Below the pieces are notes generated by a model. The model ran no database searches and was not told where the DNA came from. It saw only the letters and a list, made by a program, of their open reading frames with translations. From the NCBI GenBank assembly GCA_002437945.1, contig DJSB01000007.1:1-57111 (forward strand): a stretch of DNA of 57,111 nucleotides, in the 5' to 3' direction. Source of the DNA: Christensenella sp. UBA6345. GTDB taxonomy: Bacteria; Bacillota; Clostridia; Christensenellales; UBA1242. Below, piece by piece: positions 43,868 through 57,111 of this stretch (the first letter of the stretch is position 1; every line of letters starts with the position of its first letter). The translations under genes and the position numbers were made by a program.

Positions 43868-44941
43868 ATGAGCAATAACAAATGGGACGAAACTACACTT
43901 AACAACTTAAGAATTCACGAATTAAGAGATTTGGCTCGAAAAATAGGTGTTAGATCACCTACATCACGCAAGAAAGAAGATTTGATTAATCAAAGTTTAC
44001 AGATATTGAAAGGAGAAGCATCTCCATATGTACCATCTACTAAAAAAGGTAGACCTAATAAAAGTGAAGTAAAAATAAATGATTTAGTTGAATTATTAAT
44101 ACCTAATGAGTTGAATGCAGATTCACATATTGAATATCAACCATATGAGTCAGTTAACTTTTTTGCCAATATGCCTTCATGTGATTATGACTCTGGCGAG
44201 CCAGAACAAGTTAAAGGACTAGTAGAAATATTACCAAGCGATGTTGGGGTAATTAGAGTAGATAATTATGCTACATCTAATAAAGATGTATTTATACATG
44301 GTTCATTAATTAAAAGATATGGATTAAAGACTGGCGATGAAGTCGTAGCCAATGCTAAACTTGTGGTATCAGATAGACCACGTTCGGTTACAGAAATTAT
44401 TAGTGTTAACAAAGATATGCCTAATGGACAACCACTAAACAATGTTGTTGTAGGAGATAGACAGTTTAAATTGGGCGATATTGCATTATTTATGGGTGAT
44501 TATAATGCCCTAGATATGTTTGAGTCTATTGATGGCGGTATTAGATTCTATGTTTCTGCATATGACAAAACAAGTCATGTATCTACTGCTGATAAGATTT
44601 ATGCGACTGTATCACCATTTAAACTATATAAAGATATTTACTGTTGCTATAATTTGGCTTTTAACAGGGCTAAAAGACTATCTTGTACAAATACTGTAAC
44701 TATAGTTGTTAATGCCTTTGAAGCCTATTATAGGGCTTTAGAAGCGGTATATTGTGATAATATTGGTTCACAAGTTAAGTTAGATAAAGTTGTGCAAGAA
44801 GAAATATTAAAAATGTTTGAAGATATAAAGAAAAATAATGTAACTACAATTGTTTATGCTGGTGCAGAATTAGAACCACAAATTAAAAATTTTCTTATGT
44901 ATGAACTTAAAAATGTAGTTGATTATTGTGAAATTCAATAA
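43868..44941 (+). CDS. Rho-derived protein: intact Rho N-terminal and RNA-binding (OB) domains, degenerate and truncated ATPase domain
   Basis: 357 aa. LRIHELRDLARKIGV...KEDLINQ is a Rho_N/SAP-like motif. GLVEILPSDVGVIRVDNY...DVFIHGSLIKRYGLKTGDEV aligns by eye with E. coli GVLEILQDGFGFLRS...DIYVSPSQIRRFNLRTGDTI. At the Walker A position (E. coli PPKAGKT) it reads FMGDYNALD. At Walker B (DERPEEV) it reads YDKTSHV. AKRL and the following beta strand are retained. The protein ends before the Rho C-terminal ~70 aa. Confidence 0.7.
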   Translation: MSNNKWDETTLNNLRIHELRDLARKIGVRSPTSRKKEDLINQSLQILKGEASPYVPSTKKGRPNKSEVKINDLVELLIPNELNADSHIEYQPYESVNFFANMPSCDYDSGEPEQVKGLVEILPSDVGVIRVDNYATSNKDVFIHGSLIKRYGLKTGDEVVANAKLVVSDRPRSVTEIISVNKDMPNGQPLNNVVVGDRQFKLGDIALFMGDYNALDMFESIDGGIRFYVSAYDKTSHVSTADKIYATVSPFKLYKDIYCCYNLAFNRAKRLSCTNTVTIVVNAFEAYYRALEAVYCDNIGSQVKLDKVVQEEILKMFEDIKKNNVTTIVYAGAELEPQIKNFLMYELKNVVDYCEIQ

Positions 44942-45081: not shown

Positions 45082-48000
45082 TTATCTAAACTTCAAGTGA
45101 CGTCTAATAACAATAAATACTACAATCAATCCCACAACTACCACAGATGATACTACTATAATAATAATAGAAGTTGTATTAAGTGGTTCTTGTTTTGTTA
45201 CTTTATATGAATTGACTAATTTATTGTCCGCACTGAATATTTGAATCCAGTATTCTCTATTTTCGGTTAATGTAATAGAAGATATTTCGTTTGGACTTTC
45301 TGCTGTAATATTAATATTAGACATACCAGTAATTGCTATATATCCTACACCTATTTGGTCATAAATGATTTTTGGGTTGTAAGTAATAACAATCTGTTTT
45401 GTTGAGCCTGTTCCAAATGGTATTGAACTATATACATATGGTATTTCGTTGTTTACCCATACTTGGAAAGTAAATTCAACATCTTTGTTAAGTGTTTCGT
45501 TGTATTTAGATAAGGTAATTGTATAATTACCAGTACCTAAACTTTCTGGACTTATCCATAATTCATTTAGACTTTCTAGATTGTGTGTAATATCAGAGTT
45601 TTGCTTGAATACTTGAATTACTGTAAAGTTAGAATTTTGTGGAATGCTGAAACATGGTAAAGCAATGTTTGGATTAATTATGGTGAAACAATATTTAGTA
45701 GTTACAGATTCGTTTTGAGTAATTTTGGTTGTAATTGTTACTTCATAATATCCATGATTCATAAACTTATATTCATAGAAACTTGTTCCAACTTTTTCTG
45801 GAGTGAATTCTTTTCCATTTAAAGTTGCAGTGATTGTTGGGTCAGAGTAGTATAAGTATCTATTAGTAATTTCAATTTCGACATTACCGTTAAATATTTG
45901 GTTATTAATTGGTTCTTCATTGTTTACTTTAAATAATACATTGTTAACCAAGTTAATTGTCATTTCATTAACCGAACCGAAGTTTTGTATATTACCCGCT
46001 AAATCATATAATTTGATACGATGTATGCCTGCAGTGGTTAATGTTAAGGTGTTGGTATCATTAACTTCATCGTAAATTGTTTTTACAAAGTTTCCGTTGA
46101 AGTAGTAGTCAGCATATATTAAGTTGCCCCTTAACTCTGTTAAATTGTTTTCGGTAGTATTATATGCTTTCCAAGTAAGTATTAGTTTATTAACATTAGT
46201 CTTAACATCACTACTTAATGGTAAAGATGTTAATGTACCAGCATCGTCTGAAGGGTATAATGCACTAATATTTGTTAATGCAAGGTCATTGGCTTCATTA
46301 ACTTTATCTACGAATACGATTTGAATATATCTTTCGTATCCATAATTACTTTTACCTACTACTTTATATACTTTCTTTTTAAGTATAGAATCTTCATTGT
46401 CTATTGTAGATTCAATTAATTCACATTCAATACCTTTGTTTTTGTTAGCACGAATTTCTATGTATTTATCAGAGCCTTGTGGGTTGTTGTAATCCATTAA
46501 TGCATAATAACTATACAATATTTTTGTGCTACCTGTACCAGCATCTAAATATGTAGTTGTTTTTGGTGAAGGTCTTAATATAGTTTCTACACCATTATTA
46601 ATTTGAATAACATCATATACTACTATCTCGCCAGATACTAATTTAAAGTAAATGTTAAGGGTAGTGTCAGAGTATCCTAAACTATTACTAATTGTTGCTG
46701 TATATGTACCAGGTAAGTTAACTTCATATCCATTAGCGATATTGTTAATACGTTCGGTTTGTTGTTTGCCACTATTATCGGTATAAGTACGTAACAATGA
46801 TACATTGGCTTCAAACTTATAATCTTTATCCCAAGTAATGTAGAAGTTTTCTGTATGTATGGTTGGATCTTTAGAATTACTTGAACTTATAAGTTTACCA
46901 CCTGATTGGTTGCGAAGTTCAATTTCAGGTAGAGTTTTGTTAATCGCAAATATCTCTGTGTATAGAGTCTTTGTTTTTTCAACCATAAGTTCAACTTTGA
47001 ATTGTCTTATGGTATTTTTAGCATTGTTTTGGAATAATAATGTTCTTACGCCATTATTTAAACTTTGTTCTATAATACCATTAGCAGCATAGTCTGCGGT
47101 GTTAATTATGTTGTATGTGCCACTTGTACTATCGTATAGATATATAGAAATTAAGTATAAATTGGTTTGATATTTTAATGTTACATTATTAGCGGTATTA
47201 ACTACACCATTATCAGTAATAGATGTGCCATAATTGATTGTTCTTACATCATTAACACCCATACCTTTGTAGTAAGGTGGATATAATTCAAGGTCTTTAC
47301 CACGGTCAAATATATCAATTAATTGGAATCTAAATTCGCCTAGTCCAAAGGTGTATTTAGCCCCTTGAAGACTTGTGCCGGTCGAATAAGATTTAATAAT
47401 TGTGTTACCCAATGAATCTTGTGATTGTTCTACCCATGTACTATTAATAAATTTCCATACGTGGAATTCTTTAATATATGTGCTATCGTTGTCATTAGGT
47501 ATAGTAATAGTAAATTGTGTTGAAGATACATCTTCAATTATTGGTTCTAGTCTGTCACCAGGAACTCTATAAGTGATTACATAATCATCACTTAAACGGT
47601 TAACGAATGTAATAATTACTTTGTGACCTGATTTAGTAACTGTTTTTGTAAATTCAAGTGCATCATTGATTTTCTTTAGGAATCCTTCCCAAGATGTAGG
47701 TTCAAGGTTGTCATTAGGATTATTAATTAAAGTTACGGTAGATGTACCATAAGTAATGATACATTTATAGAAATAATCGTTAGAACCATCAATACCTGTA
47801 AAGTTAAGGTTATTACCCAATAATTCGGCAGAATTTATATATCCGTTTTTGGTATCTGGAAGCAATCCAGAAGTCTTTTCGGATTGAAGTTTTGCATTGT
47901 AATCAAAGTGAATTTGATTAATTTTGCCGTTAGGGTTGTAGTATAGGGCATATACTCTATAGTTGCCGGCTTCGTCACGTTCTACTATTTCATAATATCC

Positions 48001-51000
48001 TTCTGTGCTTAATAAGTCATAGATATTAATAATCTTGTTGGTAGAGCCGTCATTGGAATCATGATAGCCTATAGTGTCTTTTGTAAATGTTGAATCACTA
48101 TCCGAGAATCTTATATGACTTGAATTGCCTTCAGTATAGTAATTTTCGTCATCAGGTGTATAAGTCTTATAATATTCAGGGTATGCATGTTGATTAGTGT
48201 CTAATTTTCTATAGAAGAATTCGCTAGAATCTTGTGTGCCACCTAAAGCACTGTTTTGTATAAAAGTAAATGAACTATCAACTGCAAAGAAATAATTATC
48301 CATCTGTTCTTGATTTAGTAAACGACTTGCATTAAATTTTTTGTTATCGTCTTCAATTAATCTTTGATAGTTGTAAGTTGGTTTGATACGGTCTAGAGTA
48401 ATATTAAATGTACTCTTAAAGAAGTTCTTGGTCTTTTGAACTCCATTTTCAGTAACATTAATAACATAATCGCTTTCGTTACCTATATATTGTAAAACTA
48501 CTGTGTAAGTAATATTTTGTGATTTAGCCAACATATAATCACGAGTTGTACCAGAACCGCCTAAATATGTCTTGTTACTGTTTTTGTAATCTACTTCATC
48601 ATAAATAGTGATTATATAATATCCGGTTTCACTACCAGTATAGTCTGGTACAAATGTCATAACATCATCAGATGGTCTAGTACCATTAACTAGGGTAGTT
48701 ACATTGCCATTAACTGTTTTTGTAATAACAATATTGTCAGGATTAATTACTGCTTTATATTGGTCTTCATTCTTTCTAAATCTAAATCTTAATGAGTCAT
48801 TGTTAATACTCTTAAATGTACTATATTGAATACCATTAGTTTCACCATTATTAACAAGGTCTAGCATCATATCTGTACGTGCATTGTCATTGTATTTGCT
48901 ATAGAATTGACCTTCTGGTTGTTGGTGAGTGATTTTAAATTTGAAGTTATAATAATTTCTGTATTCCGCTTCTTTTTCACCAGATAATACTGATGATCTA
49001 TTGTCAGAAGAGTCCCAGATTTTAATATCATATTCGCCTTCATGAATTAATGATATTGCATATACATTGTTATGTATTGTAGAATTTACATATGTTGTAT
49101 TTATATTAACTACAGATTCTGTGTTGTCGAATATAATTGTTTGGTCGCTGTTAGTGCTTATACGCATTTTTAAGCCAAACCCATATGAATTTTCTTTTGT
49201 TGTTTCGGTAGTATATGATCTGTAAGAATTAGAATCAGTTGAGTTAAATAAAGTGTAATCTGTATTATATTTATCTAAAGGTAAATTAACTGTTACTGGT
49301 AATTTGTTTGTATCCACAATTGTAATTGATGGATTGTCAGATATTTTTGAATATCTTAAGTATTGTTGAATTTGTAGGGCAGTGTAGTATGTATCATAAA
49401 CATTGTTTACTGGGTTAGAGAAATCAAATACGATACCAGAACCTGTTTGATATAACATATCTGGAACTGTGCCGGTAAATTGATAAATATTTTCATCGGC
49501 AACATTTGTATCGATTTCAATAATACCTGTGCGGTCTACAACATATGTATAATATCTAATTACACCATCTTTGCTGTAATCCCCACCTTCAACTTTGTCA
49601 TATTCACGTTTAATTACGTAGAAACCTAATTTAGTTTTTATTTTACCATCTTCACTTGTTTGGTTAATAATTTCTGTACATACACGTGGAGAAGGTAGTG
49701 ATAGCGCACTATTGTCTACTTTTAATTTAGCATTGCTTAATGATGGTGTCTTTTTAAATGGATATGTAGGATAAGGAACACCATTTTGTGTATTTGTATT
49801 GTATGTGTCAATATAATCGCTAGTAATTTCCTTATATGCTTCTGGGTCAAATTCATAATAACTATAAGTAATTTCTTTTACATGGTACGAACTTCCTTCG
49901 TCACCAGGTAAATATGTAAATCTTAATTCGGAAGCATTAATTGTTCCTGATATTACATCTTCATAATTTGATGTGCCATTAGTGTTGTTGAAATTAGCAT
50001 ACATAATACCTTGAGCATTGTCTAGGAACATACGTACAAAGCCTTTCTTGGTATTACTATTGCTTATATTAGTTAAACTCTTGATATTTGATGCATCAGA
50101 TATTTGATATGTATATACTTTATCGTCACCAGAGAAGAAACGTTCTACATATGTCGCATTATCTGGAGCAGTAGGGTATATTATAACATTTGTCTGATTA
50201 GTAAGGTTAATACTATTAGAACCTTGATTAAATAAAACATTATTAATTCTAACATTTAAGAAATATGTGTTATTTACTAATGAGAAGTATCCTGTTGCTC
50301 TTTCTATGATGTTTTGCATTTTTGCATTGTTAATACGATTGTCAGTAACAGTGGCATTTATTCTGATAGATTTATAATTACCCCAAGTGATTTGGGCTTT
50401 ATCTGTAATAATTCCGTATGGATTTTCTATATTTTGTATTCCATCTTTAGTTAGGTCAGTATCTACAATAACATATGGTTTGGTTAAATCATAAATCATA
50501 AATTTAGATGCTGTGTTGCCTGCTTCGTCTTTTAATTCAAATACATAAATATTGGATACATCATCTAGAAATGCATTTTCGCTTGATATAAGTCCAGTGT
50601 CTAGGGAAGAGTAGTCAAAATTGTAAGGGCTTCCGCCATCCATATTGTCTACATCTATCATATAGTTGGTTTCAATGTATTCTTTTGAATCGTTGGTAAA
50701 TAATCTACCTGCATTACTGTTAGCGATAAATGGTATCTTGTAGTATATGGTATTGATACTTGCACCGCTAGGCTTTTTTGAATATGTTAATGTAAATGGT
50801 TGATTGATGATAAATGAATTACTAATATCAACTTCATTTCTGTCGTTTGAAATGGCATAACCTATTACCGAACCTGTAATTGGGTTCTTTCTAGCATAAA
50901 TAGGATTAATATTAATGTTTGATATTGGGTCTTTATCAATTACGTACTTATAACCTATATTTATAGGTTCGTTACCAGCGGTGTTGTCTCGGTTAAGATA

Positions 51001-52869
51001 TATCTTGACTTCATATTTACCGCTCTCGCCATCGCCTATAACTTGGTCTTTTGTTACTGGCATATTTCTTGCAAGAACATTACCATTAAAATCATATTTT
51101 GTATATGTAGCACTAATAGGTGCTTCAAAGTATGTAGCATCTGTCCATGTGGCAGATACGCCAGCATTTACAAATGATTCATTTTTAATTTCGCTACCAT
51201 CGTCTACTCTGTTAAGGGTAAGACTTGGTGTAGAATTATGTATCTGGAATACAAATGCTTGTTTATGTATTGTGTTACTTCCGCCAGCATTAGTATCTGT
51301 GTAATCATTGTATGTGTAAGCAATTATAACTTCATAATAACCAGTATTATCAAGACTAGTGTCTTTAGTTATATAACCCGAACCTTTTGTTGCAGGAACG
51401 GAGAATTGACTATCAGTGTACACACGATATACAGATTGTGGACGGTCTCCATTAATAGAATATGTACCATAGCAATCAAAACTAATTGTAGGCATATTGG
51501 TTTTTGGATAATTAAAATTATATATGCGGTTTTCCCCATCTAAAGTAAATAATGGGTTATTGATTGTGCCGTCTGCAGTATTATATGTTTTTGTGCTCAT
51601 GAATCCAGGATTCATTATTTCTGGGGCTTTAGTATATGTATCATATAATAAACTTGTAATATCTGCTTTAGTATCTTCATGTTTTAATTCGGTTTTGCCA
51701 TCTTTACTAAAATATGCTTTTACACCGAATATATGTAATTTTGCTCTACCTTTTTGATTATCACCATTTTCATATCTGTTATTACCATTGGCATCTTTGT
51801 CTTTTATGTCATATGCAAAAATATCTTCTGTAACTACAAACTCGGATTTAGTACCAGTAGAAATATTAACAAGATATCTGATTTCAAAATTATATGTACC
51901 TAGGTCTTCAAAGGTTAGGGTAGTCATATATTCGTCATTTTCATTTTTTACTATTCTAATTCTTTGATTTTTGCTTTCGCCGTTAACTGTCTTGGTTAAA
52001 GTTAAATAACCTTCTTTGGTACTAGTATCTATTTCAAATGAAGAAGTAACTGAATCTGTTTCTTTATTCTTCTCTCTTACATATCTGATATTGTATCTTG
52101 AAGCGTCAAATGTTAATGTAGGTAAAGTATCTTTAGTAAAGTTGTAATAATATTGAACTATGTTGGAATTGTCATTTTTACCTTGTACAGCCGAACTGTT
52201 GAAAACAGGGTAGTTGTCGTATTGGTTTTGGTCAAGTATGTAGAATGAGTATTTGTATGTTTTACCGGTATCTATTTTGTTGTCTACACATACTGCATAG
52301 TCGAATTGGAATTCATAAAGACCTTCGCCCGATACTGTACGTCCATCTTTTGTAGTTAAGTCTTTACCATCAAAGTAGCCATACCAATAACGTGCTTCGG
52401 TATTGTTGTCTGGTAAATTCTCGGTTTCGTAGATAGTAACATCGTTAAGTCTTATGTCTTCGCCATTTACTTTAAGTGTAACAATAAGGTTAGGTAGTAA
52501 CACACCTTCTTCTTGTGCACCAAAGGCTACATATGCATTCTCAATAGGAGCAGTAGATGAAGATGAATTAATTAATTGTTGCTCACTCTTATAGTTTTTA
52601 AGCATAACAAAAGCACCGTCTTCGATAGTCTCCAAGTCACCATTGTATACTTTCTCATCTTCGGTATAACTATAATGATTGGATTTTAACGAACTGGCAC
52701 TACGTTTGGCAATACCTATTTTGAAAGGTACACCAGTAACAAGTTCTTCTGCTTTTGCAGTGTCTTTAGGTTTGTAGAAACAAGAAAGGTAAAGGATTAC
52801 CCCCAATGTACAAATTATAAGAACTGCTATTGATATGTTTAAAAATTTATTCCAACTAAATTTTCTCAT
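45082..52869 (-). CDS. Giant (2595 aa) surface protein of divergent Ig-like beta-sandwich modules, with a TM helix at each terminus
   Basis: One uninterrupted 7.8-kb ORF. RBS AGGAG 7 nt upstream of the ATG. N-terminal anchor FLNISIAVLIICTLGVILYLSCFY. C-terminal anchor TSIIIIVVSSVVVVGLIVVFIVIRRHLKFR, with no LPXTG. A G-x-Y-x-[IV]-x-[IV]...D-x-AGN type signature recurs (GTYNFEIRY, GYYEVIIAYTY, GKYEVKIYL, LKDEAGNTASKF, GEYDIKIWDSSDN, GYYEIVERDEAGNYRVY, GTYTATISNSLGY, GIHRIKLYDLAGNIQNF, GYYEVTITTK, GNYTITLSKY). Confidence 0.85.
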   Translation of the reverse strand: MRKFSWNKFLNISIAVLIICTLGVILYLSCFYKPKDTAKAEELVTGVPFKIGIAKRSASSLKSNHYSYTEDEKVYNGDLETIEDGAFVMLKNYKSEQQLINSSSSTAPIENAYVAFGAQEEGVLLPNLIVTLKVNGEDIRLNDVTIYETENLPDNNTEARYWYGYFDGKDLTTKDGRTVSGEGLYEFQFDYAVCVDNKIDTGKTYKYSFYILDQNQYDNYPVFNSSAVQGKNDNSNIVQYYYNFTKDTLPTLTFDASRYNIRYVREKNKETDSVTSSFEIDTSTKEGYLTLTKTVNGESKNQRIRIVKNENDEYMTTLTFEDLGTYNFEIRYLVNISTGTKSEFVVTEDIFAYDIKDKDANGNNRYENGDNQKGRAKLHIFGVKAYFSKDGKTELKHEDTKADITSLLYDTYTKAPEIMNPGFMSTKTYNTADGTINNPLFTLDGENRIYNFNYPKTNMPTISFDCYGTYSINGDRPQSVYRVYTDSQFSVPATKGSGYITKDTSLDNTGYYEVIIAYTYNDYTDTNAGGSNTIHKQAFVFQIHNSTPSLTLNRVDDGSEIKNESFVNAGVSATWTDATYFEAPISATYTKYDFNGNVLARNMPVTKDQVIGDGESGKYEVKIYLNRDNTAGNEPINIGYKYVIDKDPISNININPIYARKNPITGSVIGYAISNDRNEVDISNSFIINQPFTLTYSKKPSGASINTIYYKIPFIANSNAGRLFTNDSKEYIETNYMIDVDNMDGGSPYNFDYSSLDTGLISSENAFLDDVSNIYVFELKDEAGNTASKFMIYDLTKPYVIVDTDLTKDGIQNIENPYGIITDKAQITWGNYKSIRINATVTDNRINNAKMQNIIERATGYFSLVNNTYFLNVRINNVLFNQGSNSINLTNQTNVIIYPTAPDNATYVERFFSGDDKVYTYQISDASNIKSLTNISNSNTKKGFVRMFLDNAQGIMYANFNNTNGTSNYEDVISGTINASELRFTYLPGDEGSSYHVKEITYSYYEFDPEAYKEITSDYIDTYNTNTQNGVPYPTYPFKKTPSLSNAKLKVDNSALSLPSPRVCTEIINQTSEDGKIKTKLGFYVIKREYDKVEGGDYSKDGVIRYYTYVVDRTGIIEIDTNVADENIYQFTGTVPDMLYQTGSGIVFDFSNPVNNVYDTYYTALQIQQYLRYSKISDNPSITIVDTNKLPVTVNLPLDKYNTDYTLFNSTDSNSYRSYTTETTKENSYGFGLKMRISTNSDQTIIFDNTESVVNINTTYVNSTIHNNVYAISLIHEGEYDIKIWDSSDNRSSVLSGEKEAEYRNYYNFKFKITHQQPEGQFYSKYNDNARTDMMLDLVNNGETNGIQYSTFKSINNDSLRFRFRKNEDQYKAVINPDNIVITKTVNGNVTTLVNGTRPSDDVMTFVPDYTGSETGYYIITIYDEVDYKNSNKTYLGGSGTTRDYMLAKSQNITYTVVLQYIGNESDYVINVTENGVQKTKNFFKSTFNITLDRIKPTYNYQRLIEDDNKKFNASRLLNQEQMDNYFFAVDSSFTFIQNSALGGTQDSSEFFYRKLDTNQHAYPEYYKTYTPDDENYYTEGNSSHIRFSDSDSTFTKDTIGYHDSNDGSTNKIINIYDLLSTEGYYEIVERDEAGNYRVYALYYNPNGKINQIHFDYNAKLQSEKTSGLLPDTKNGYINSAELLGNNLNFTGIDGSNDYFYKCIITYGTSTVTLINNPNDNLEPTSWEGFLKKINDALEFTKTVTKSGHKVIITFVNRLSDDYVITYRVPGDRLEPIIEDVSSTQFTITIPNDNDSTYIKEFHVWKFINSTWVEQSQDSLGNTIIKSYSTGTSLQGAKYTFGLGEFRFQLIDIFDRGKDLELYPPYYKGMGVNDVRTINYGTSITDNGVVNTANNVTLKYQTNLYLISIYLYDSTSGTYNIINTADYAANGIIEQSLNNGVRTLLFQNNAKNTIRQFKVELMVEKTKTLYTEIFAINKTLPEIELRNQSGGKLISSSNSKDPTIHTENFYITWDKDYKFEANVSLLRTYTDNSGKQQTERINNIANGYEVNLPGTYTATISNSLGYSDTTLNIYFKLVSGEIVVYDVIQINNGVETILRPSPKTTTYLDAGTGSTKILYSYYALMDYNNPQGSDKYIEIRANKNKGIECELIESTIDNEDSILKKKVYKVVGKSNYGYERYIQIVFVDKVNEANDLALTNISALYPSDDAGTLTSLPLSSDVKTNVNKLILTWKAYNTTENNLTELRGNLIYADYYFNGNFVKTIYDEVNDTNTLTLTTAGIHRIKLYDLAGNIQNFGSVNEMTINLVNNVLFKVNNEEPINNQIFNGNVEIEITNRYLYYSDPTITATLNGKEFTPEKVGTSFYEYKFMNHGYYEVTITTKITQNESVTTKYCFTIINPNIALPCFSIPQNSNFTVIQVFKQNSDITHNLESLNELWISPESLGTGNYTITLSKYNETLNKDVEFTFQVWVNNEIPYVYSSIPFGTGSTKQIVITYNPKIIYDQIGVGYIAITGMSNINITAESPNEISSITLTENREYWIQIFSADNKLVNSYKVTKQEPLNTTSIIIIVVSSVVVVGLIVVFIVIRRHLKFR

Positions 52870-53052
52870 ATGTTAACTCCTACATTTGCGATTTTGTTAA
52901 GACAATATTTCGCATTTTGACAATTACTAACTAAATTTTAGCATATCAATTTTTTTTTGCCAAATAATATATATTATAATTTAATATATTTTAAGTTATT
53001 TCTTTTACTATTATGTTAAGTAAATAACAATTAAAATATGTGTTTTGTTGGT

Positions 53053-53152
53053 TTAAATTTTTTACATTGTAGATAATTTATCAGCATACTATTCAAAAAT
53101 AATTTATTTTTAATATAAAATTTTATATTGTTAAATTTTTAATTGTAGATAA
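53053..53152. repeat. Direct repeat TTAAATTTTT(T)A(C)ATTGTAGATAA x2 upstream of the giant gene
   Basis: Copies at 53053-53076 and 53131-53152. The exact 11-mer ATTGTAGATAA starts at 53066 and 53142, 76 nt apart. They lie 180-280 nt upstream of the giant gene start. Confidence 0.4.
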
Positions 53153-53232
53153 AAACACATATTAATAATTTGCATATGATAGTATTTTTGTAGTAAATAT
53201 AGCCATTTTTTAACTATATGCTGTAAAGGATA

Positions 53233-53269
53233 TAAAAAAACAACAACGATTTTTCGTTGTTGTTTTTTG
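53233..53269 (-). terminator. Rho-independent terminator after the coupling-protein gene (usable on both strands)
   Basis: A7-ACAACAACG-ATTTTT-CGTTGTTGT-T6. It separates the T4CP gene from the giant gene promoter region. Confidence 0.8.
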
Positions 53270-53277
53270 TGTGTTTA

Positions 53278-55335
53278 TTAAATATCAAAATCTCCAAAAT
53301 CAGTGTTTCCGCCACCAAATGAATTAAATTGGTCGCCTTGACCTTGTGGATTAAGAATTTTCTTATTACGTTCTTTAATATCGTAGTAAATAGCCTTTTC
53401 GTCCAACATCTTTGGTATTACAAATTCGTCAGGTGCAGGTTTCATATCATATATTCTTTGTGCTTCAGGTTTATAACTTGGAGTGGTTTTTACCTTAATA
53501 GGATTTTGTTTTAATATAGATACGATTAACTCGTCTTTTAGACTACCAAGTTCGTTAGGGTAGATAAGTGGACGAGAATCCATATTGACACTTGTTGTTG
53601 TAGTGCTTTGTTCGTCTTTTTTACCTTTTGATGTTGTAGTACTTTCTGTTTCAACTGTTATAGTACCGCATCTGTCACTAAATTTCTTTTGTGTATCAGG
53701 ATCGTTACTACCGATATAAATATGAATGTTACAGTTGTCTTGAATAGTTGCTGCGACTTTTTCGTCATACTTAATAGCAAGTTGGGCATATGATTGAAGC
53801 ATAAGTAGGAAGAATATTTTTCTACTACGTGCAACAGTAATCATGGTTTCAAAGTTTTGAATAGCAGGCATATTAGCAAATTCATCTAGAATGTAATATA
53901 CTGTACGTTTTAACTCACCACCATTTTTGTTGGCAGAGTTAACAAGAATCTTATATAACTGACTAATAAACATACTTGCTATAGCATGTCTAGTAACTTT
54001 TTCATCTGGTATTTTTATAAATAGTGCAGTTGGCTGATCGGTAAATGTTTTTAAATCCATCTCATTGGTGTGAGTACAATAACATACACCAAGGTCACTA
54101 AATAAGTTAAGTCTATCAGAAACAATACCCATATATGATTTTTTAGTATTGTCAGCATTGGTAATAACTTGGTTGGCAAGTTGTGTTGCTTGGCTTAATG
54201 GATCACGTCCAGCAAAATAATCTGTAAGTGATTTCATAGGGTTGAATGGGTCATTATCTTTTAAATTGGCAATTTTTGCTACGTTGTAGAAGTTAAATTT
54301 CTCTTTAGTCATACCTAAAGCAGGATTTTCACTATCTTCAAGCATTGCAAGCATAACTGCAAAAATAAAGTCTTTAGCACCACTTTCCCATATAGGGTCT
54401 GACTTACTTAATACAGGGCATAGTGTCATGGCTATATCTTTTAAGTCTTCTACTGCTTCGGCTTTTAATTGTTGTCTTAAACCATTAATTTGGGCTTTAA
54501 CAGTATTCATATCTGCGAATGCTATGCCATTAAATTCATACCACTCGGAGAAATATTGATTACTTGCTAATCTTAAATTTGGATATTTACGTGGGTCATC
54601 ACCACGGTGTACTAGAATTTCTTTCTCTAGATTTCTTGCTCTTTCATTAAATTCGTATGGACGGGTCATAGGGTTCCAACAAGTACTGTTAAATGGGTCT
54701 TTTAAGTCGAATACTAGAACTCTGTAACCTTGTTTTTTAAGTTTGTTGCTGTGGAAACTATACAACTCGCCTTTAGGGTCGGTAATAACCATACAAGGTT
54801 TGGCTTTTGATTCACTAAATACTTGAATGGTAGGGTTAACGAACTGTGTTGTTTTACCAGTACCAGTAGTACCAATAACAAGTGTATGTATTGGCTTGTA
54901 CATATTAACCAACATTCTACTACCTACAACTTCGGCTCTAATAAGGATACCTATATTAGTGGTATTCTTAAGATTGTCATAATAACAGAATTTGAAGTCA
55001 GGGTTGGTCTTAAGTTCTTGAGCGGTAACCCAGTGACTATCATAATATTTCTTTAATCCGCCTTTAGTTTTAACTTTTGCGCCGTTAGATGAGTCTGAAG
55101 GAGATTTCATCATTTTGGTTAAAATGTATAGTATTGCAAGTAGTCCACCTAAAACCGCTATTATTAAGAATGTGCCACTTGAAAGTATGCTTATATCGAA
55201 TACTAGGGCTTTGTGAGTTATGACACATGCTACGACATAAGCCAATACTAAAATCCCGACTATCATACATAAAAACTTAAACATTCCACCTGCAAGTTTT
55301 TCTGCAAAAGTCTTTTCTTTCTTTTCTTTTTCCAT
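53278..55335 (-). CDS. VirD4/TraG-family type IV secretion coupling protein (T4CP)
   Basis: 685 aa. Two N-terminal TM helices, Walker A LVIGTTGTGKTT, ITDPKGE, Walker B-like VYYILDEFANM, and an acidic C-terminal tail (DFGDFDI). Confidence 0.85.
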   Translation of the reverse strand: MEKEKKEKTFAEKLAGGMFKFLCMIVGILVLAYVVACVITHKALVFDISILSSGTFLIIAVLGGLLAILYILTKMMKSPSDSSNGAKVKTKGGLKKYYDSHWVTAQELKTNPDFKFCYYDNLKNTTNIGILIRAEVVGSRMLVNMYKPIHTLVIGTTGTGKTTQFVNPTIQVFSESKAKPCMVITDPKGELYSFHSNKLKKQGYRVLVFDLKDPFNSTCWNPMTRPYEFNERARNLEKEILVHRGDDPRKYPNLRLASNQYFSEWYEFNGIAFADMNTVKAQINGLRQQLKAEAVEDLKDIAMTLCPVLSKSDPIWESGAKDFIFAVMLAMLEDSENPALGMTKEKFNFYNVAKIANLKDNDPFNPMKSLTDYFAGRDPLSQATQLANQVITNADNTKKSYMGIVSDRLNLFSDLGVCYCTHTNEMDLKTFTDQPTALFIKIPDEKVTRHAIASMFISQLYKILVNSANKNGGELKRTVYYILDEFANMPAIQNFETMITVARSRKIFFLLMLQSYAQLAIKYDEKVAATIQDNCNIHIYIGSNDPDTQKKFSDRCGTITVETESTTTSKGKKDEQSTTTTSVNMDSRPLIYPNELGSLKDELIVSILKQNPIKVKTTPSYKPEAQRIYDMKPAPDEFVIPKMLDEKAIYYDIKERNKKILNPQGQGDQFNSFGGGNTDFGDFDI

Positions 55336-55450
55336 AGTTCACCTTTACAATTTAGTATTAAATTTACATTAGTAGTATATATTTATATTAAAAATTTTAC
55401 AAATAAATTAAATCAATTTAACAATTTTAATATATTTTTTATTATGTTAG

Positions 55451-55479
55451 TTGCCAATAACAATAATTTAATGTATAAT
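55451..55479 (+). promoter_or_regulatory. Sigma-A-type promoter of the pilin-like gene
   Basis: TTGCCA (55451-55456), 17-nt spacer, TATAAT (55474-55479). Confidence 0.5.
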
Positions 55480-55600
55480 GAAATCAGTTAAAGCCAATTA
55501 TTTTTCATATTTTTTATAAAAAATGTGTAAAATATTTGAAATAAGTCAAATATTGTGTTAATATTGACGTAAGATAAGACTAAATGTGGAGGAAAAACTT

Positions 55601-56002
55601 ATGCAAATGTTTTTAATGAATTTAGCACAATCAATCATGGGATTTAAAAGTTTGATAGCAGCAGATTCTTCTAGTGGTATTACCAATGCTACCGGTTTCT
55701 TTGATAGAGTTATGAAACCAGTTGTTGATATCCTAGATGGTATGTTAGTTCCTATTCTTATTTTAGTAGGTACAGCAGGTTCTATTTATGCTATCGTATT
55801 AGGTGTTAACTTTAGTAAGGCTGAAAGTGCTGATAAACGTGAAGAAGCAAAGAAACGTATGATCAATGCAATTATTGGTTTGGTTGTAACTATTGTATTG
55901 TTGATTTTATTGAAACTATTTACTGCTAATGCTCAAGCAATCGCAGACTGGATCAATGGTGTTGCTAAAACTTCATCATCTTCTGCTGCTACACAACAAT
56001 AA
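55601..56002 (+). CDS. VirB2/TrbC/Maff2-like small two-TM membrane protein (putative T4SS pilin-type subunit)
   Basis: Likely start ATG 55601, with GGAGG 8 nt upstream (tracked ORF starts at GTG 55586). The leader-like N-terminus ends in ...LIAADSS. Two hydrophobic helices (MLVPILILVGTAGSIYAIVLGV and INAIIGLVVTIVLLILLKLF) are separated by a short charged loop (SKAESADKREEAKKR), which is the VirB2/TrbC topology. It is divergent from the T4CP gene. Confidence 0.55.
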   Translation: MQMFLMNLAQSIMGFKSLIAADSSSGITNATGFFDRVMKPVVDILDGMLVPILILVGTAGSIYAIVLGVNFSKAESADKREEAKKRMINAIIGLVVTIVLLILLKLFTANAQAIADWINGVAKTSSSSAATQQ

Positions 56003-56051
56003 GATAACAGGTAAATTTACAAATTATTATAATTTGCATAATTTTAATATA

Positions 56052-56086
56052 AAAAGCATGTGTATTAAGTGTACATATGCTTTTTT
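56052..56086 (+). terminator. Rho-independent terminator after the pilin-like gene
   Basis: GCATGTGTA-TTAAGTG-TACATATGC (one mismatch) followed by T6. Confidence 0.7.
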
Positions 56087-56279
56087 ATATTTTCGCTTAC
56101 CCCTGCAGGGCAACAACATAGGTTGTTGGAATCCTAAAACGTGCAGTCAATACTATTTTTATTTATAACGTGCACCTTGTATTTGTCATTCTGAGCGGAA
56201 CGCAGTGCAGTCGAACCCGTAGGGCAACGGCGAAGACGTTGGAATCCCAAAACGTAAAGTAAATATAATAATATTTTTT

Positions 56280-56370
56280 AATCCCGCCTAGATTACGATG
56301 TCGTATACACTCCATCGCCTTTCGTTGTTACTCAAGGTTCGACTGTCGCTCATAATGACAGGCGGGGATT
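56280..56370 (+). other. 91-nt element closed by a 10/11-bp stem (copy 1), containing an inverted X-type module
   Basis: AATCCCGCCT...AGGCGGGGATT closing stem. The interior carries GGTTCGACTGTCGCTCATAATGAC, the reverse complement of GTCATTATGAGCGACAGTCGAACC. Confidence 0.7.
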
Positions 56371-56388
56371 AAACAACTTGACATAATA

Positions 56389-56397
56389 TGCTATAGT
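56389..56397 (+). promoter_or_regulatory. Extended -10-like TGCTATAGT inside repeat unit 1 (identical copy at 56728-56736)
   Basis: TGnTATAGT. The TTGACA at 56378-56383 is only 8 nt upstream, so it is not a canonical -35. Promoter status is speculative. Confidence 0.3.
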
Positions 56398-56502
56398 ATC
56401 TAGCACATATTTGAAAATGGTGTTTAATTTGAAAGTTGCGTGTTGTTATTATTTTTATGATTATTTTAATGGCAGTTGTAAAGCATATACCACTAACAAT
56501 AC

Positions 56503-56841
56503 ATAACATGCACCTTGTATTTGTCATTCTGAGCGGAACGCAGTGTAGTCGAACCCGTAGGGCAACGGCGAAGAAGTTGGAATCTCAAAATGTAAAGCAA
56601 ATATAATAATATTTTTTAATCCCGCCTAGATTACGATGTCGTATACACTCCATCGCCTTTCGTTGTTACTCAAGGTTCGACTGTCGCTCATAATGACAGG
56701 CGGGGATTAAGTTAACTTGACATAATATGCTATAGTATCTAGCACATATTTGAAAATGGTGTTTAATTTGAAAGTTGCGTGTTGTTATTATTATCATAAT
56801 TATTCTAATGCTAGTCGTAAAGCATGTACCACTAACAATAC
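56503..56841 (+). repeat. Tandem repeat unit 2 (339 nt)
   Basis: As unit 1. The next landmark is at 56862. There is a 1-nt length difference at the AAACAAC/AAGTTAAC junction. Confidence 0.85.
56618..56708 (+). other. 91-nt hairpin element (copy 2), 91/91 identical to copy 1
   Basis: Base-by-base comparison with 56280-56370 shows no differences. Confidence 0.8.
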
Positions 56842-57111
56842 ATAACGTACACTTTATATATGTCATTCTGAGCGGAGCGATAGCGAAGTCGAACCTGTAG
56901 GGCAACGGCGAAGACGTTGGAATCCCAAAACGAGCAGTGTATATCTAAAAAAAATACAAAATGAAATAGCACATACATGTCATTCTGAGCGTAGCGGTAG
57001 CGAAGTCGAAATTTGACATCAGTCAAATCGAAAGTGTGCTATGCACCTTTCGGAATCTCAAAATGTAAAGTTGATATTTTATTTGATTTTACTTTACCCC
57101 GCCTAGATTAC
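56842..57111 (+). repeat. Degenerate continuation of the array (two further X modules, then the start of another hairpin element at the window edge)
   Basis: GTCATTCTGAGCG occurs again at 56862 and 56979. The final CCCCGCCTAGATTAC matches the first 15 nt of the 91-nt hairpin element. Confidence 0.7.

What the first reader, a model, noticed from the sequence alone, without database searches (positions are those of the whole stretch)
56165..57111. Non-coding tandem array of 338/339-nt composite units that runs off the window edge
Seen directly. Unit 1 (56165-56502) and unit 2 (56503-56841) are near-identical. A degenerate third unit follows. The last 15 nt of the window restart the 91-nt hairpin element, so the array continues beyond 57111.

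Each full unit contains, in order: a ~70-nt module (X, starting GTCATTCTGAGCG and ending GGAATC[C/T]CAAAA[C/T]G), an AT-rich linker, a 91-nt element closed by AATCCCGCCT/AGGCGGGGATT, a TGCTATAGT extended -10-like box, and an AT-rich tail. No ORF of 60 or more codons with an RBS fits the units, and the tracked ORFs here cut across repeat boundaries.

The landmark motifs (GTCATTCTGAGCG, AATCCCGCCT) did not appear elsewhere in the 57 kb when I read it. The array starts right after the terminator of the VirB2-like gene in the accessory end of the window.

Inference: this is either an array of small structured RNA genes or a nest of MITE-like elements. Its partner genes, if any (recombinase, nuclease, RT), would lie past the window edge.
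Basis: seen in the sequence. Interest (0 to 1): 0.72.

Follow-up and report, generated by a model that had tools for sequence, protein, structure and literature searches.

The report
Cluster of nuclease-linked hairpin DNA repeats
The "array" is a real but short pile-up of small hairpin-forming DNA repeats that are scattered through this gut bacterium's genome and flank a tiny GIY-YIG (Ssn-type) single-strand DNA nuclease gene, so it is a variant of a repeat system described in 2025, not a set of RNA genes.

Summary
Window 56165-56502 and 56503-56841 are 95% identical tandem units, followed by degenerate modules, and independent assemblies span the region. The array ends about 70 nt past the window edge. 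An AT-rich spacer and the next type IV secretion gene follow, so no partner gene lies there.

Each unit is a mosaic. Module X (+ strand) and module H (- strand) share one architecture in opposite orientation: GTCATTMTGAGCG, AGTCGAAC, two swappable inner hairpins, AATC. A linker and a tail complete the unit.

The modules are absent from the same spacer in sister species. They occur at 10 or more other intergenic sites beside housekeeping genes in the same metagenomic population. They also flank a single 93-aa GIY-YIG gene that is 47% identical to the NTS-flanked gonococcal gene.

They are therefore a divergent, extended class of Ssn-related hairpin repeats (Chenal et al. 2025, PMC11893778), piled up like BIME or NIME mosaics. 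They are not sRNA genes. The published SRM search pattern does not match them. Cleavage of X/H single-stranded DNA by this lineage's Ssn is inferred, not shown.

Verdict: new variant of a known kind, moderate interest.

The parts
56051..56085 (+). Terminator-like hairpin of the T4SS pilin gene (55601-56002). It marks the upstream limit of the repeat cluster.
   Evidence: L001 10451-10485 maps to window 56051-56085, I11.
56095..56143 (+). X0, a 5'-truncated X module. It keeps hairpin CCCTGCAGGG, hairpin CAACAAC-ATAG-GTTGTTG and the tail GGAATCCTAAAACG.
   Evidence: Sequence, D3. In strain L002 an H module occupies this position instead.
56184..56254 (+). X1 module: TGTCATTCTGAGCG, an 11-nt spacer, AGTCGAAC, hairpin CCCGTAGGG, hairpin CAACG..CGTTG, then GGAATCCCAAAACG.
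56280..56369 (-). H1 module, read on the minus strand: CCCCGCCT, GTCATTATGAGCG, ACAGTCGAAC, two hairpins, TAATCT, AGGCGGG. It has the same architecture as X plus an outer 7-8-bp GC stem.
   Evidence: The minus strand folds at -30.9 kcal/mol against -23.6 for the plus strand.
56370..56521 (+). Tail T1 of unit 1. It holds TTGACATAATATGCTATAGT (-10-like boxes) and a variable patch at 56454-56487. It is a third repeated module, found after H at other loci.
56522..56592 (+). X2 module.
56618..56707 (-). H2 module.
56708..56860 (+). Tail of unit 2 (TGCTATAGT at 56728-56736).
56861..56932 (+). X3 module. It carries a 12-nt spacer variant with a 1-nt length change relative to X1.
56978..57065 (+). X4 module, the long variant. 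Its inner hairpins are replaced by ATTTGAC-ATCA-GTCAAAT and GAAAGTGTGC-TAT-GCACCTTTC.
57095..57111 (-). Start of H3, cut by the window end. It is complete in L001 11496-11582 and is the last module of the array.

Best explanation
The region is a mosaic cluster of short, non-coding, hairpin-forming interspersed repeats. It is comparable to the BIME clusters of E. coli or the dRS3/NIME arrays of Neisseria.

Architecture (shown here). Two module types, X and H, are versions of one architecture placed in opposite orientation: a GTCAT head, a short closing stem (ATTC/GAAT in X, ATTATGA/TCGTAAT in H), a conserved GAGCG...AGTCGAAC core, two replaceable inner hairpins, and an AATC tail. Together with a linker and a tail segment they form a roughly 300-340-nt composite. 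Unequal recombination between repeated modules has duplicated and reshuffled this composite, which explains why strains differ in module number.

Family link (shown here by sequence and context). The modules belong to the hairpin repeats that accompany the small single-domain GIY-YIG nuclease Ssn. In this lineage a single 93-aa Ssn homologue lies inside an X/H cluster.

Mechanism (taken from Chenal et al. 2025 for Neisseria and Wolbachia homologues, inferred for this organism). Ssn binds its cognate hairpin only in single-stranded DNA and only on the strand carrying the GTCAT head. It cuts a few nucleotides upstream. DNA carrying the repeats is therefore cleaved when it becomes single-stranded, for instance during transformation, and possibly during conjugative entry or replication. 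The same enzyme-repeat pair is the likely cause of the repeats' spread.

The array itself most likely has no dedicated product.
For: Shown here:
1. Tandem units and modules are real.
2. X(+) and H(-) share head, core and tail. The invariant alignment columns are TCATT and AATCTAGG plus the outer stem.
3. The inner hairpins exist as alternative sequences that each pair. H has compensatory UA<->CG and GC<->AU changes. X has CAACGG/CCGTTG versus CAACAAC/GTTGTTG.
4. Strand asymmetry: 24 of 25 distinct H copies fold better on the strand carrying the GTCAT head, by a mean of 6.4 kcal/mol, with conserved G-U pairs. This fits recognition of one DNA strand.
5. Lineage-specific insertion: sister species with the same synteny (pilin 68-79% identical) have a plain AT-rich spacer and no module.
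6. Dispersal: the H pattern finds 10 metagenome contigs. On these contigs modules lie beside typA, dnaA-dnaN-rnpA, glmS, ssb, germination genes and ABC transporter genes. Tandem arrays of other periods also occur there, 293 and 323 nt.
7. A 93-aa GIY-YIG gene (PF01541) lies inside X/H clusters in L148, L151 and L152. These contigs come from the same samples, at matching coverage, as contigs carrying the window's pilin (L004/L151; L007 at 7.9x and L152 at 8.3x).
8. That protein is 47% identical (E 2e-25) to the N. gonorrhoeae gene flanked by four canonical NTS repeats.
9. All 12 GIY-YIG lineages chosen by protein homology alone carry hairpin repeats beside the gene, GTCAT-headed in most. In 10 of these 12 loci the inverted-repeat score of the flanks exceeds all 200 shuffles.

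From the literature: Ssn cleaves ssDNA next to its cognate hairpin, on one strand only, and not dsDNA or RNA. It lowers transformation by repeat-bearing DNA. The authors draw the analogy with REP/RAYT/BIME (PMC11893778).
Against: - No experiment links this lineage's Ssn to X or H.
- X and H do not match the published SRM search pattern: 0 hits in the window, L001, L002, L148, L151 and L152.
- At 70-93 nt with inner hairpins, they are longer than the 20-50-nt repeats described in the paper.
- X copies fold slightly better on the strand opposite their GTCAT head (22 of 27, mean 1.6 kcal/mol). This does not fit simple head-strand recognition.
- In this lineage the ssn gene is not enclosed left arm-gene-right arm as in other lineages. 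It sits between X/H pairs.
- Assignment of the ssn contig and the housekeeping-gene contigs to the window's organism rests on co-occurrence, coverage, GC content and identical repeats. There is no physical linkage.
- Two features are not explained by the model: the -10-like boxes in every tail, and the 12-of-13 co-orientation with flanking genes (counted by eye).
Confidence: 0.7

Rival explanations
1. Array of small structured RNA genes. Each unit would be transcribed from the TGCTATAGT box, giving an sRNA that contains X and H.
For: Extended -10-like boxes recur about 25 nt after H in most copies. X plus H folds with z about -3.4 on either strand.
Against: - No Rfam family matches, even at E<=10.
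- Only one terminator-like site is found, and it belongs to the pilin gene.
- The modules are not conserved in sister species at the same locus.
- Modules occur singly, in pairs or in different orders at unrelated sites.
- H folds markedly better on the strand opposite to the proposed transcript.
- Promoter-like hits are only 25 against 15.3 +/- 4.3 in shuffles of this AT-rich DNA.
Confidence: 0.07
2. Ordinary MITEs mobilised by a DDE transposase. The TG...CA termini and the 13+8-nt inverted similarity between the X 5' end and the H 3' end would be the terminal repeats. The nearby GIY-YIG gene would be coincidental.
For: X-linker-H pairs occur as isolated units of about 175 nt. Their ends read TGTCAT...ATGACA.
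Against: - No target-site duplication is seen at isolated copies.
- No transposase family recurs within 1.5 kb of 129 related elements in 120 loci.
- X-only and H-only runs are common.
- The GIY-YIG association holds in every lineage sampled by protein homology and has been published (PMC11893778).
Confidence: 0.1
3. Small-peptide genes: a type I toxin or a signalling peptide encoded in the tail. Candidates are the 29-31-aa frame MVFNLKVACCYY..TTNNT and the hydrophobic frame starting at 56436.
For: The 29-aa frame keeps its length and stop in four variants, with some synonymous changes. The other frame shows conservative hydrophobic changes between units 1 and 2.
Against: - There is no Shine-Dalgarno sequence.
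- The ATG is lost in the L002/L143 variant.
- Homologous tails of type T2 carry early stops at different places (MQLIIV*, M*).
- X3 shifts the long frame into a stop.
Confidence: 0.03
4. Single-strand DNA signals of a conjugative element (oriT, single-strand origin, or ssDNA promoter) belonging to the T4SS gene cluster.
For: There are two arrays inside the T4SS cluster. The hairpins are strand-asymmetric.
Against: - The same modules lie beside dnaN, ssb, typA and glmS on other contigs.
- Related T4SS clusters in sister species lack them.
- The T4SS cluster sits at the same chromosomal position in those species, so it is not a recent mobile island.
Confidence: 0.03
5. The tandem duplication is a short-read assembly artefact.
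For: The window ends inside the array. Many related contigs also end in such repeats.
Against: L001 reproduces the window's arrangement exactly within a 102-kb contig. Other samples give internally consistent variants.
Confidence: 0.05

Closest known systems
Ssn-related motifs (SRM; NTS in Neisseria) with the GIY-YIG ssDNA nuclease SsnA (Chenal et al., Nat Commun 2025, PMC11893778)
   Same: - GTCAT head, then a hairpin whose stem begins ATT, then a C directly after the stem.
- Directional, with one strand favoured.
- Hundreds of intergenic copies are reported in some genomes in the literature.
- Clusters lie near surface or pilus genes.
- Copies flank a roughly 93-94-aa single-domain GIY-YIG gene, here 47% identical to the gonococcal one.
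   Different: - Modules are 70-93 nt, with a conserved GAGCG..AGTCGAAC core and two extra inner hairpins, instead of a 28-nt simple hairpin.
- They fail the published degenerate pattern.
- The host is a spore-forming Firmicute, whereas the paper stresses Gram-negative hosts.
- The ssn gene sits between X/H pairs rather than inside one inverted pair.
- Cleavage has not been tested.
Neisserial dRS3 repeats and NIMEs (own knowledge; dRS3 is also described in PMC11893778)
   Same: Intergenic arrays are built from repeat units bounded by short hairpin repeats. They are strain-variable and lie near pilin and surface-protein genes.
   Different: The sequences differ. NIME units are bounded by 20-bp dRS3. 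Here the hairpin modules themselves are long and alternate in orientation.
REP / BIME / REPIN elements with RAYT transposases (own knowledge; Bertels & Rainey 2011, PMC3116915, listed)
   Same: - Imperfect palindromes occur singly, as inverted pairs and as tandem mosaics with fixed linker motifs.
- They sit after gene ends.
- A single-copy nuclease gene is flanked by the repeats.
- Distribution is lineage-specific.
   Different: - The associated enzyme is a GIY-YIG nuclease, not a Y1 HUH transposase.
- There is no GTAG or CGTC tag.
- The modules are longer.
- The core motif recurs across many phyla.
Pneumococcal BOX elements and other modular MITEs (own knowledge)
   Same: Modular composition with variable module number. 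Highly structured and intergenic.
   Different: No boxA/B/C homology was tested or expected. No target duplications are seen.
Tandem sRNA gene arrays such as LhrC1-4 of Listeria (own knowledge)
   Same: Tandem units of a few hundred nt with promoter-like boxes.
   Different: No terminator per unit, no conservation in relatives, and the modules are dispersed genome-wide.

Membership tests
Ssn-related hairpin repeats (SRM/NTS) | 5' head HGTCWY directly before the palindrome (nucleotides needed for cleavage) | tested here: met
   All 27 distinct X copies were retrieved with a TGTCAT-anchored pattern, so the head is partly presupposed for X. In H the head was not imposed: 21 of the 23 aligned distinct H copies carry TGTCAT on the minus strand and 2 carry TATCAT.
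Ssn-related hairpin repeats (SRM/NTS) | Hairpin-forming inverted repeat followed at once by a C (the nucleotide most important for binding in Neisseria) | tested here: met
   X has ATTC...GAAT-C. H(-) has ATTATGA...TCGTAAT-C. AATC is invariant in alignment A1.
Ssn-related hairpin repeats (SRM/NTS) | Match to the published search pattern HGTCWYN(0-2)YYVSBRHN(0-5)WNVSBRGN(0-2)RNCYNB (20-50-nt simple hairpin) | tested here: not met
   0 matches in the window, L001, L002, L148, L151 and L152. The same script finds 1-4 matches in L161, L180, L181, L182 and L074. The loop of X/H holds 50-70 nt with two further hairpins.
Ssn-related hairpin repeats (SRM/NTS) | Copies flank an ssn gene (small single-domain GIY-YIG, cd10448) in the same genome | tested here: met
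   The 93-aa GIY-YIG gene has H(-) 28-35 nt after its stop and H/X modules upstream (L148, L151, L152). It is 47% identical to the NTS-flanked gonococcal gene. Assignment to cd10448 itself was not run. Same-genome linkage rests on sample and coverage.
Ssn-related hairpin repeats (SRM/NTS) | Cognate Ssn binds and cleaves the repeat as ssDNA, on one strand only | not testable with these tools
   Only indirect support: 24 of 25 H copies are more stable on the head-bearing strand. X does not show this.
REP/REPIN-RAYT | 20-40-nt imperfect palindrome with a conserved GTAG or CGTC tag | tested here: not met
   Modules are 70-93 nt and the head is TGTCAT.
REP/REPIN-RAYT | Single-copy Y1 (IS200-like) transposase gene flanked by the repeats | tested here: not met
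   The flanked gene in this lineage is GIY-YIG. No recurrent family was found near 129 related elements. A RAYT elsewhere in the genome cannot be excluded.
REP/REPIN-RAYT | Dispersed intergenic copies that occur singly, as inverted pairs and as tandem mosaics | tested here: met
MITE | Terminal inverted repeats plus target-site duplication and a related autonomous IS | tested here: inconclusive
   Inverted similarity exists between the X 5' end and the H 3' end. No duplication is seen at isolated copies. No transposase was found.
sRNA gene array | Promoter and terminator per unit, conservation in relatives, or a known RNA family | tested here: not met

The most novel reading that the evidence does not exclude
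X and H define a distinct, extended class of Ssn targets. They are 70-93-nt multi-hairpin single-strand DNA structures sharing the core GTCATTCTGAGCG...AGTCGAA(GAATC).

Simpler members of this class occur in more than 12 phyla. In four lineages examined here they flank ssn homologues, yet the published SRM pattern misses them. If so, the Ssn-repeat partnership is considerably wider and structurally more varied than reported. It would include Gram-positive gut Clostridia and enzymes that read a three-way-junction-like ssDNA.

A further step, which is speculative: clusters inside a conserved chromosomal T4SS/pilin locus would expose this locus to Ssn cutting whenever it is transferred or taken up as single-stranded DNA.
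Probability: 0.35. Interest if true: 0.6.

Novelty: new variant of a known kind. Interest (0 to 1): 0.4.

Why it matters
For annotation, the region should be labelled as interspersed hairpin repeats and not as RNA genes or a defence or recombination locus. The repeats also explain why contigs of this organism break here.

For biology, this case places the recently described Ssn nuclease/hairpin-repeat system in a spore-forming gut Firmicute. It shows a repeat architecture that the published search pattern cannot find, so current counts of such repeats are probably underestimates.

Each new enzyme-repeat pair is also a candidate site-specific single-strand DNA cutter. That is the applied interest raised by the 2025 paper.

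Tried and rejected
- Rfam, both strands, permissive threshold on the region and gathering threshold on the whole window and on 18 related loci: nothing on the repeats.
- tRNA/tmRNA scan: none.
- BLASTN of the region against the plasmid and phage collections: no match.
- H and X patterns in viral contigs: 0 hits.
- Strict H pattern in GTDB species representatives: 0 hits. The species representative either lacks the repeats or breaks at them.
- Literature search by sequence strings: only unrelated primers.
- Searches for GIY-YIG plus palindromic repeats, and for COG2827/YhbQ: nothing relevant. The 2006 GIY-YIG survey does not mention flanking repeats. The decisive paper was found only through 'dRS3' plus 'GIY-YIG'.
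- Unbiased clustering of ORFs within 1.5 kb of 129 pan-bacterial elements: no recurrent family.
- Orientation of those elements relative to genes: no clear bias.
- Coding test of the tail ORFs: rejected.
- PDB sequence search for the GIY-YIG protein: no hit. NCBIfam gave only sub-threshold matches to group I intron endonuclease and UvrC models, all far below cut-off.
- The paper's supplementary tables are not held.
- My first regular expressions for H were wrong and gave one copy. This was corrected.
Full report
**1. What the window is**

The window has about 30% G+C. Its first 45 kb carry chromosomal housekeeping and sporulation genes: MurC-like ligase, RF1, UvrC, DnaE, MetRS, YpeB and SipL. 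The host is therefore a spore-forming Firmicute. Related proteins come from gut metagenomes and are named only 'Firmicutes/Clostridia bacterium'.

From about 45 kb the window carries:
- a 2595-aa protein with no Pfam match;
- a VirD4/TraG-type coupling protein (53278-55335, minus strand);
- a T4SS pilin (55601-56002, PF18895).

The finding starts about 90 nt after the pilin stop, just past a terminator-like hairpin.

**2. The observation**

The two units are real. They share 322 of 338 identical positions. The landmark motif GTCATTMTGAGCG occurs six times, only in this region, against 0.01 expected.

Looking up the pilin protein gave ten contigs from other assemblies. L001 is identical to the window over 10.7 kb and continues past the window edge. 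The third H element is completed about 70 nt beyond the edge. About 420 nt of AT-rich spacer follows, ending in a promoter-like and leader segment that is conserved in other species. Then come a 758-aa gene and a VirB4-like ATPase.

So the array does not go on, and no recombinase, nuclease or RT lies next to it.

Strains with the identical pilin carry different module orders and numbers (L001, L002, L004, L007). The pattern looks like recombination between repeated modules. For example, L007 lacks exactly the segment between X2 and X3.

A second array of the same modules lies between the VirB4-like gene and the next gene.

**3. Anatomy**

On the minus strand H reads:

CCCCGCCT-GTCATTATGAGCG-(0-3 nt)-AGTCGAAC-hairpin-hairpin-TAATCT-AGGCGGG

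On the plus strand X reads:

GTCATTCTGAGCG-(0-12 nt)-AGTCGAAC-hairpin-hairpin-GGAATCC

X and H are therefore the same kind of module in opposite orientation. H carries an additional outer GC stem.

Across 27 distinct X copies and 25 distinct H copies collected from all loci:
- The head (TCATT), the core and the tail (AATC) are nearly invariant.
- The inner hairpins come in alternative versions that each pair. X uses CCCGTAGGG or ATTTGAC..GTCAAAT, and CAACGG..CCGTTG or CAACAAC..GTTGTTG. H uses CGATG..CATCG or CGACAAAC..GTTTGTCG.
- RNAalifold counts 6-8 sequences with double, pair-preserving changes in three pairs of H.

H is strand-asymmetric. In 24 of 25 copies the head-bearing (minus) strand is more stable, by 6.4 kcal/mol on average, because of conserved G-U(T) pairs. 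X shows a weak opposite tendency, which remains unexplained.

The tail is a third repeated module found after H elsewhere. It exists in two homologous forms, T1 and T2. The small ORFs of T1 are not preserved in T2, so I do not regard the tail as coding.

**4. Not conserved, but dispersed**

Species whose pilin is 68-79% identical keep the whole gene order at the same distance from the contig start. The T4SS cluster is therefore an old chromosomal feature of this clade. Their pilin-downstream spacer is plain AT-rich DNA without any module.

A metagenome scan with an H pattern gave ten contigs of 30-34% G+C, from a small set of gut assemblies, one of which also yielded a T4SS-locus contig. Some of them are the T4SS locus again (L143, L149; 97-98% identical). 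The others carry X, H and tail modules in these settings:
- between typA and its neighbour;
- after dnaN in a recF-dnaA-dnaN-rnpA region;
- after glmS;
- after ssb;
- next to germination and ABC-transporter genes;
- around a 666-aa secreted protein.

On these contigs the modules appear as single X-H pairs, as X runs, as H-H pairs, and as tandem arrays with periods of 293 and 323 nt.

Matching coverage within samples supports one organism: 5.2-5.8x in ERZ808286 and 3.6-4.6x in ERZ808245. In 12 of 13 sites the X-to-H direction follows the flanking genes. This count was made by eye. I cannot separate a transcription-related cause from a replication-related one.

**5. The wider family and the nuclease**

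The phyla include Thermotogota, Verrucomicrobiota, Acidobacteriota, Chloroflexota, Bacteroidota, Fibrobacterota, Patescibacteria, Deinococcota, Latescibacterota and many Clostridia.

Most hits are simple versions: a left half TGTCATTCTGAGCG..AGTCGAAGAATC, a variable loop, and a right half GATCCTTCGAC..CGCTCAGGATGACA. ATTCT/AGAAT in one half is replaced by ATCCT/AGGAT in the other, which is a compensatory change within each half. One Oscillospiraceae genome has the extended form with two inner hairpins and a CCGCCC/GGGCGG closure, like H (L036, L121, L129). No Rfam family covers these elements. No protein family recurs next to them.

Reading the isolated copies showed a 93-aa GIY-YIG gene inside an X/H cluster in L148. 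The same gene (98% identical) is in L151-L153, with H(-) modules on both sides. These contigs come from samples that also hold the window's pilin contigs, at matching coverage.

I then sampled GIY-YIG homologues chosen by protein similarity only:
- five metagenomic lineages (L154, L161, L171, L172, L175);
- seven cultured organisms: Planktothrix, Sinorhizobium, Azospirillum, Neisseria gonorrhoeae, Aeromonas, Spirosoma and Novosphingobium.

All twelve have hairpin repeats next to the gene, GTCAT-headed in most, usually on both sides. In ten of the twelve loci the inverted-repeat score of the flanks exceeds all 200 shuffles.

**6. What is known**

The neisserial repeats beside the gene are dRS3-type. 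That clue led to Chenal et al. 2025 (PMC11893778). The paper reports the following:
- SsnA is a 94-aa single-domain GIY-YIG protein (cd10448).
- It binds the NTS hairpin (CGTCATTCCCGCGMAVGCGGGAATCYRG) only as single-stranded DNA and only in one orientation. It cuts a few nucleotides upstream. It does not act on dsDNA or RNA.
- It lowers transformation about five-fold for DNA carrying NTS.
- 71% of ssnA homologues have such 'Ssn-related motifs' nearby.
- The NTS-ssnA-NTS layout resembles IS elements and the REP/RAYT/BIME system.

The link I had worked out from the data is therefore already published.

The GIY-YIG protein of the window's lineage is 47% identical (E 2e-25) to the gonococcal gene, which is flanked by four matches to the published pattern. 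Tyr, Tyr and Glu lie at positions 5, 16 and 63. This matches the residues mutated in the paper (6, 17, 64) with a one-residue offset in my reading of the alignment.

**7. Membership**

X and H have the head, the stem beginning ATT and the C after the stem, which the paper finds critical. They also flank an ssn homologue.

They fail the published degenerate pattern. So do the simple CTGAGCG-type repeats that flank ssn homologues in L116, L172, L175 and L178. I therefore file the array as a divergent, extended variant of Ssn-related repeats, arranged as a mosaic cluster. I do not file it as a member of the motif as currently defined.

**8. Mechanism and its status**

Shown here: the architecture, the strand asymmetry of H, the lineage-specific insertion, the dispersal, the strain-to-strain reshuffling, and the association with the ssn homologue.

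Taken from the paper: what Ssn enzymes do to their cognate repeats.

Inferred: that this Ssn recognises X and/or H; that it contributed to their spread; and that clusters such as this one make the neighbouring DNA vulnerable when it is single-stranded.

Nothing suggests a product specific to this array.

**9. Verdict**

The feature is real. It is not an RNA-gene array and has no partner gene beyond the edge. It is a new variant of a known kind. Interest is moderate, for three reasons:
- the family's biology is only a year old;
- this is a Gram-positive case;
- the repeat form escapes the published detector.

Noticed in passing
L001 17290-17525; L002 17130-18130: A second X/H array lies between the VirB4-like ATPase gene and the next gene of the T4SS cluster. 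It is much longer in L002. There it includes a roughly 230-nt insert closed by CCCCGCCT...AGGTGGG (L002 about 17745-17975) whose content I did not analyse.
   Followed up: partly
window 45082-57111 and L011, L014, L018: The T4SS gene cluster (giant protein, coupling protein, pilin, 758-837-aa protein, VirB4-like) sits at nearly the same distance (about 45.6-46.8 kb) from the contig start in species whose pilin is only 68-79% identical. It looks like a conserved chromosomal locus of the clade rather than a recently acquired conjugative element.
   Followed up: partly
window 43868-44941 (+): A 357-aa protein has Rho_N and Rho RNA-binding domains but no hit to the Rho ATPase part. It may be a truncated or divergent Rho-like protein.
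   Followed up: no
window 45082-52869 (-): A 2595-aa ORF directly beside the T4SS genes has no Pfam match above threshold, only a faint cadherin-like hit at its C-terminus.
   Followed up: no
window 56454-56487: Half of the 16 differences between unit 1 and unit 2 fall in this 34-nt patch of the tail. It lies in the loop of a possible hairpin (GTGTTGTTA ... TAACAATAC).
   Followed up: partly
L001 11830-11998; L014 10925-11110; L018 11015-11165: The segment ATAACATTTTATTGATTTTTGA..TTTATGTAGTAAAATTA and the leader after it are conserved across species upstream of the 758-837-aa gene. The rest of the spacer is not conserved. This is probably the real promoter and 5' leader of that gene.
   Followed up: no
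L180 (Azospirillum lipoferum 4B plasmid AZO_p3), L178 (Planktothrix agardhii plasmid p1), L183 (Spirosoma oryzicola plasmid): ssn-like GIY-YIG genes with their hairpin repeats are wedged between sufB and sufC, between an MmeI-type enzyme gene and drmA of a DISARM system, and between two glycoside hydrolase genes. This is what one expects of an inserted selfish cassette.
   Followed up: partly
L116, L172, L175, L178 versus L161, L180-L182: The degenerate SRM pattern published in 2025 finds the ATTCCCGCG-type repeats. It finds none of the GTCATTCTGAGCG..GAAGAATC-type repeats that flank ssn homologues in four other lineages. The latter type occurs in more than 12 phyla in the genome scan.
   Followed up: partly
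L145 4866-11115: On this contig recF, dnaA, dnaN, a 333-aa gene, rnpA, yidC, jag and mnmE all point the same way. This is unusual for a Firmicute origin region. An X-H pair sits just after dnaN.
   Followed up: no
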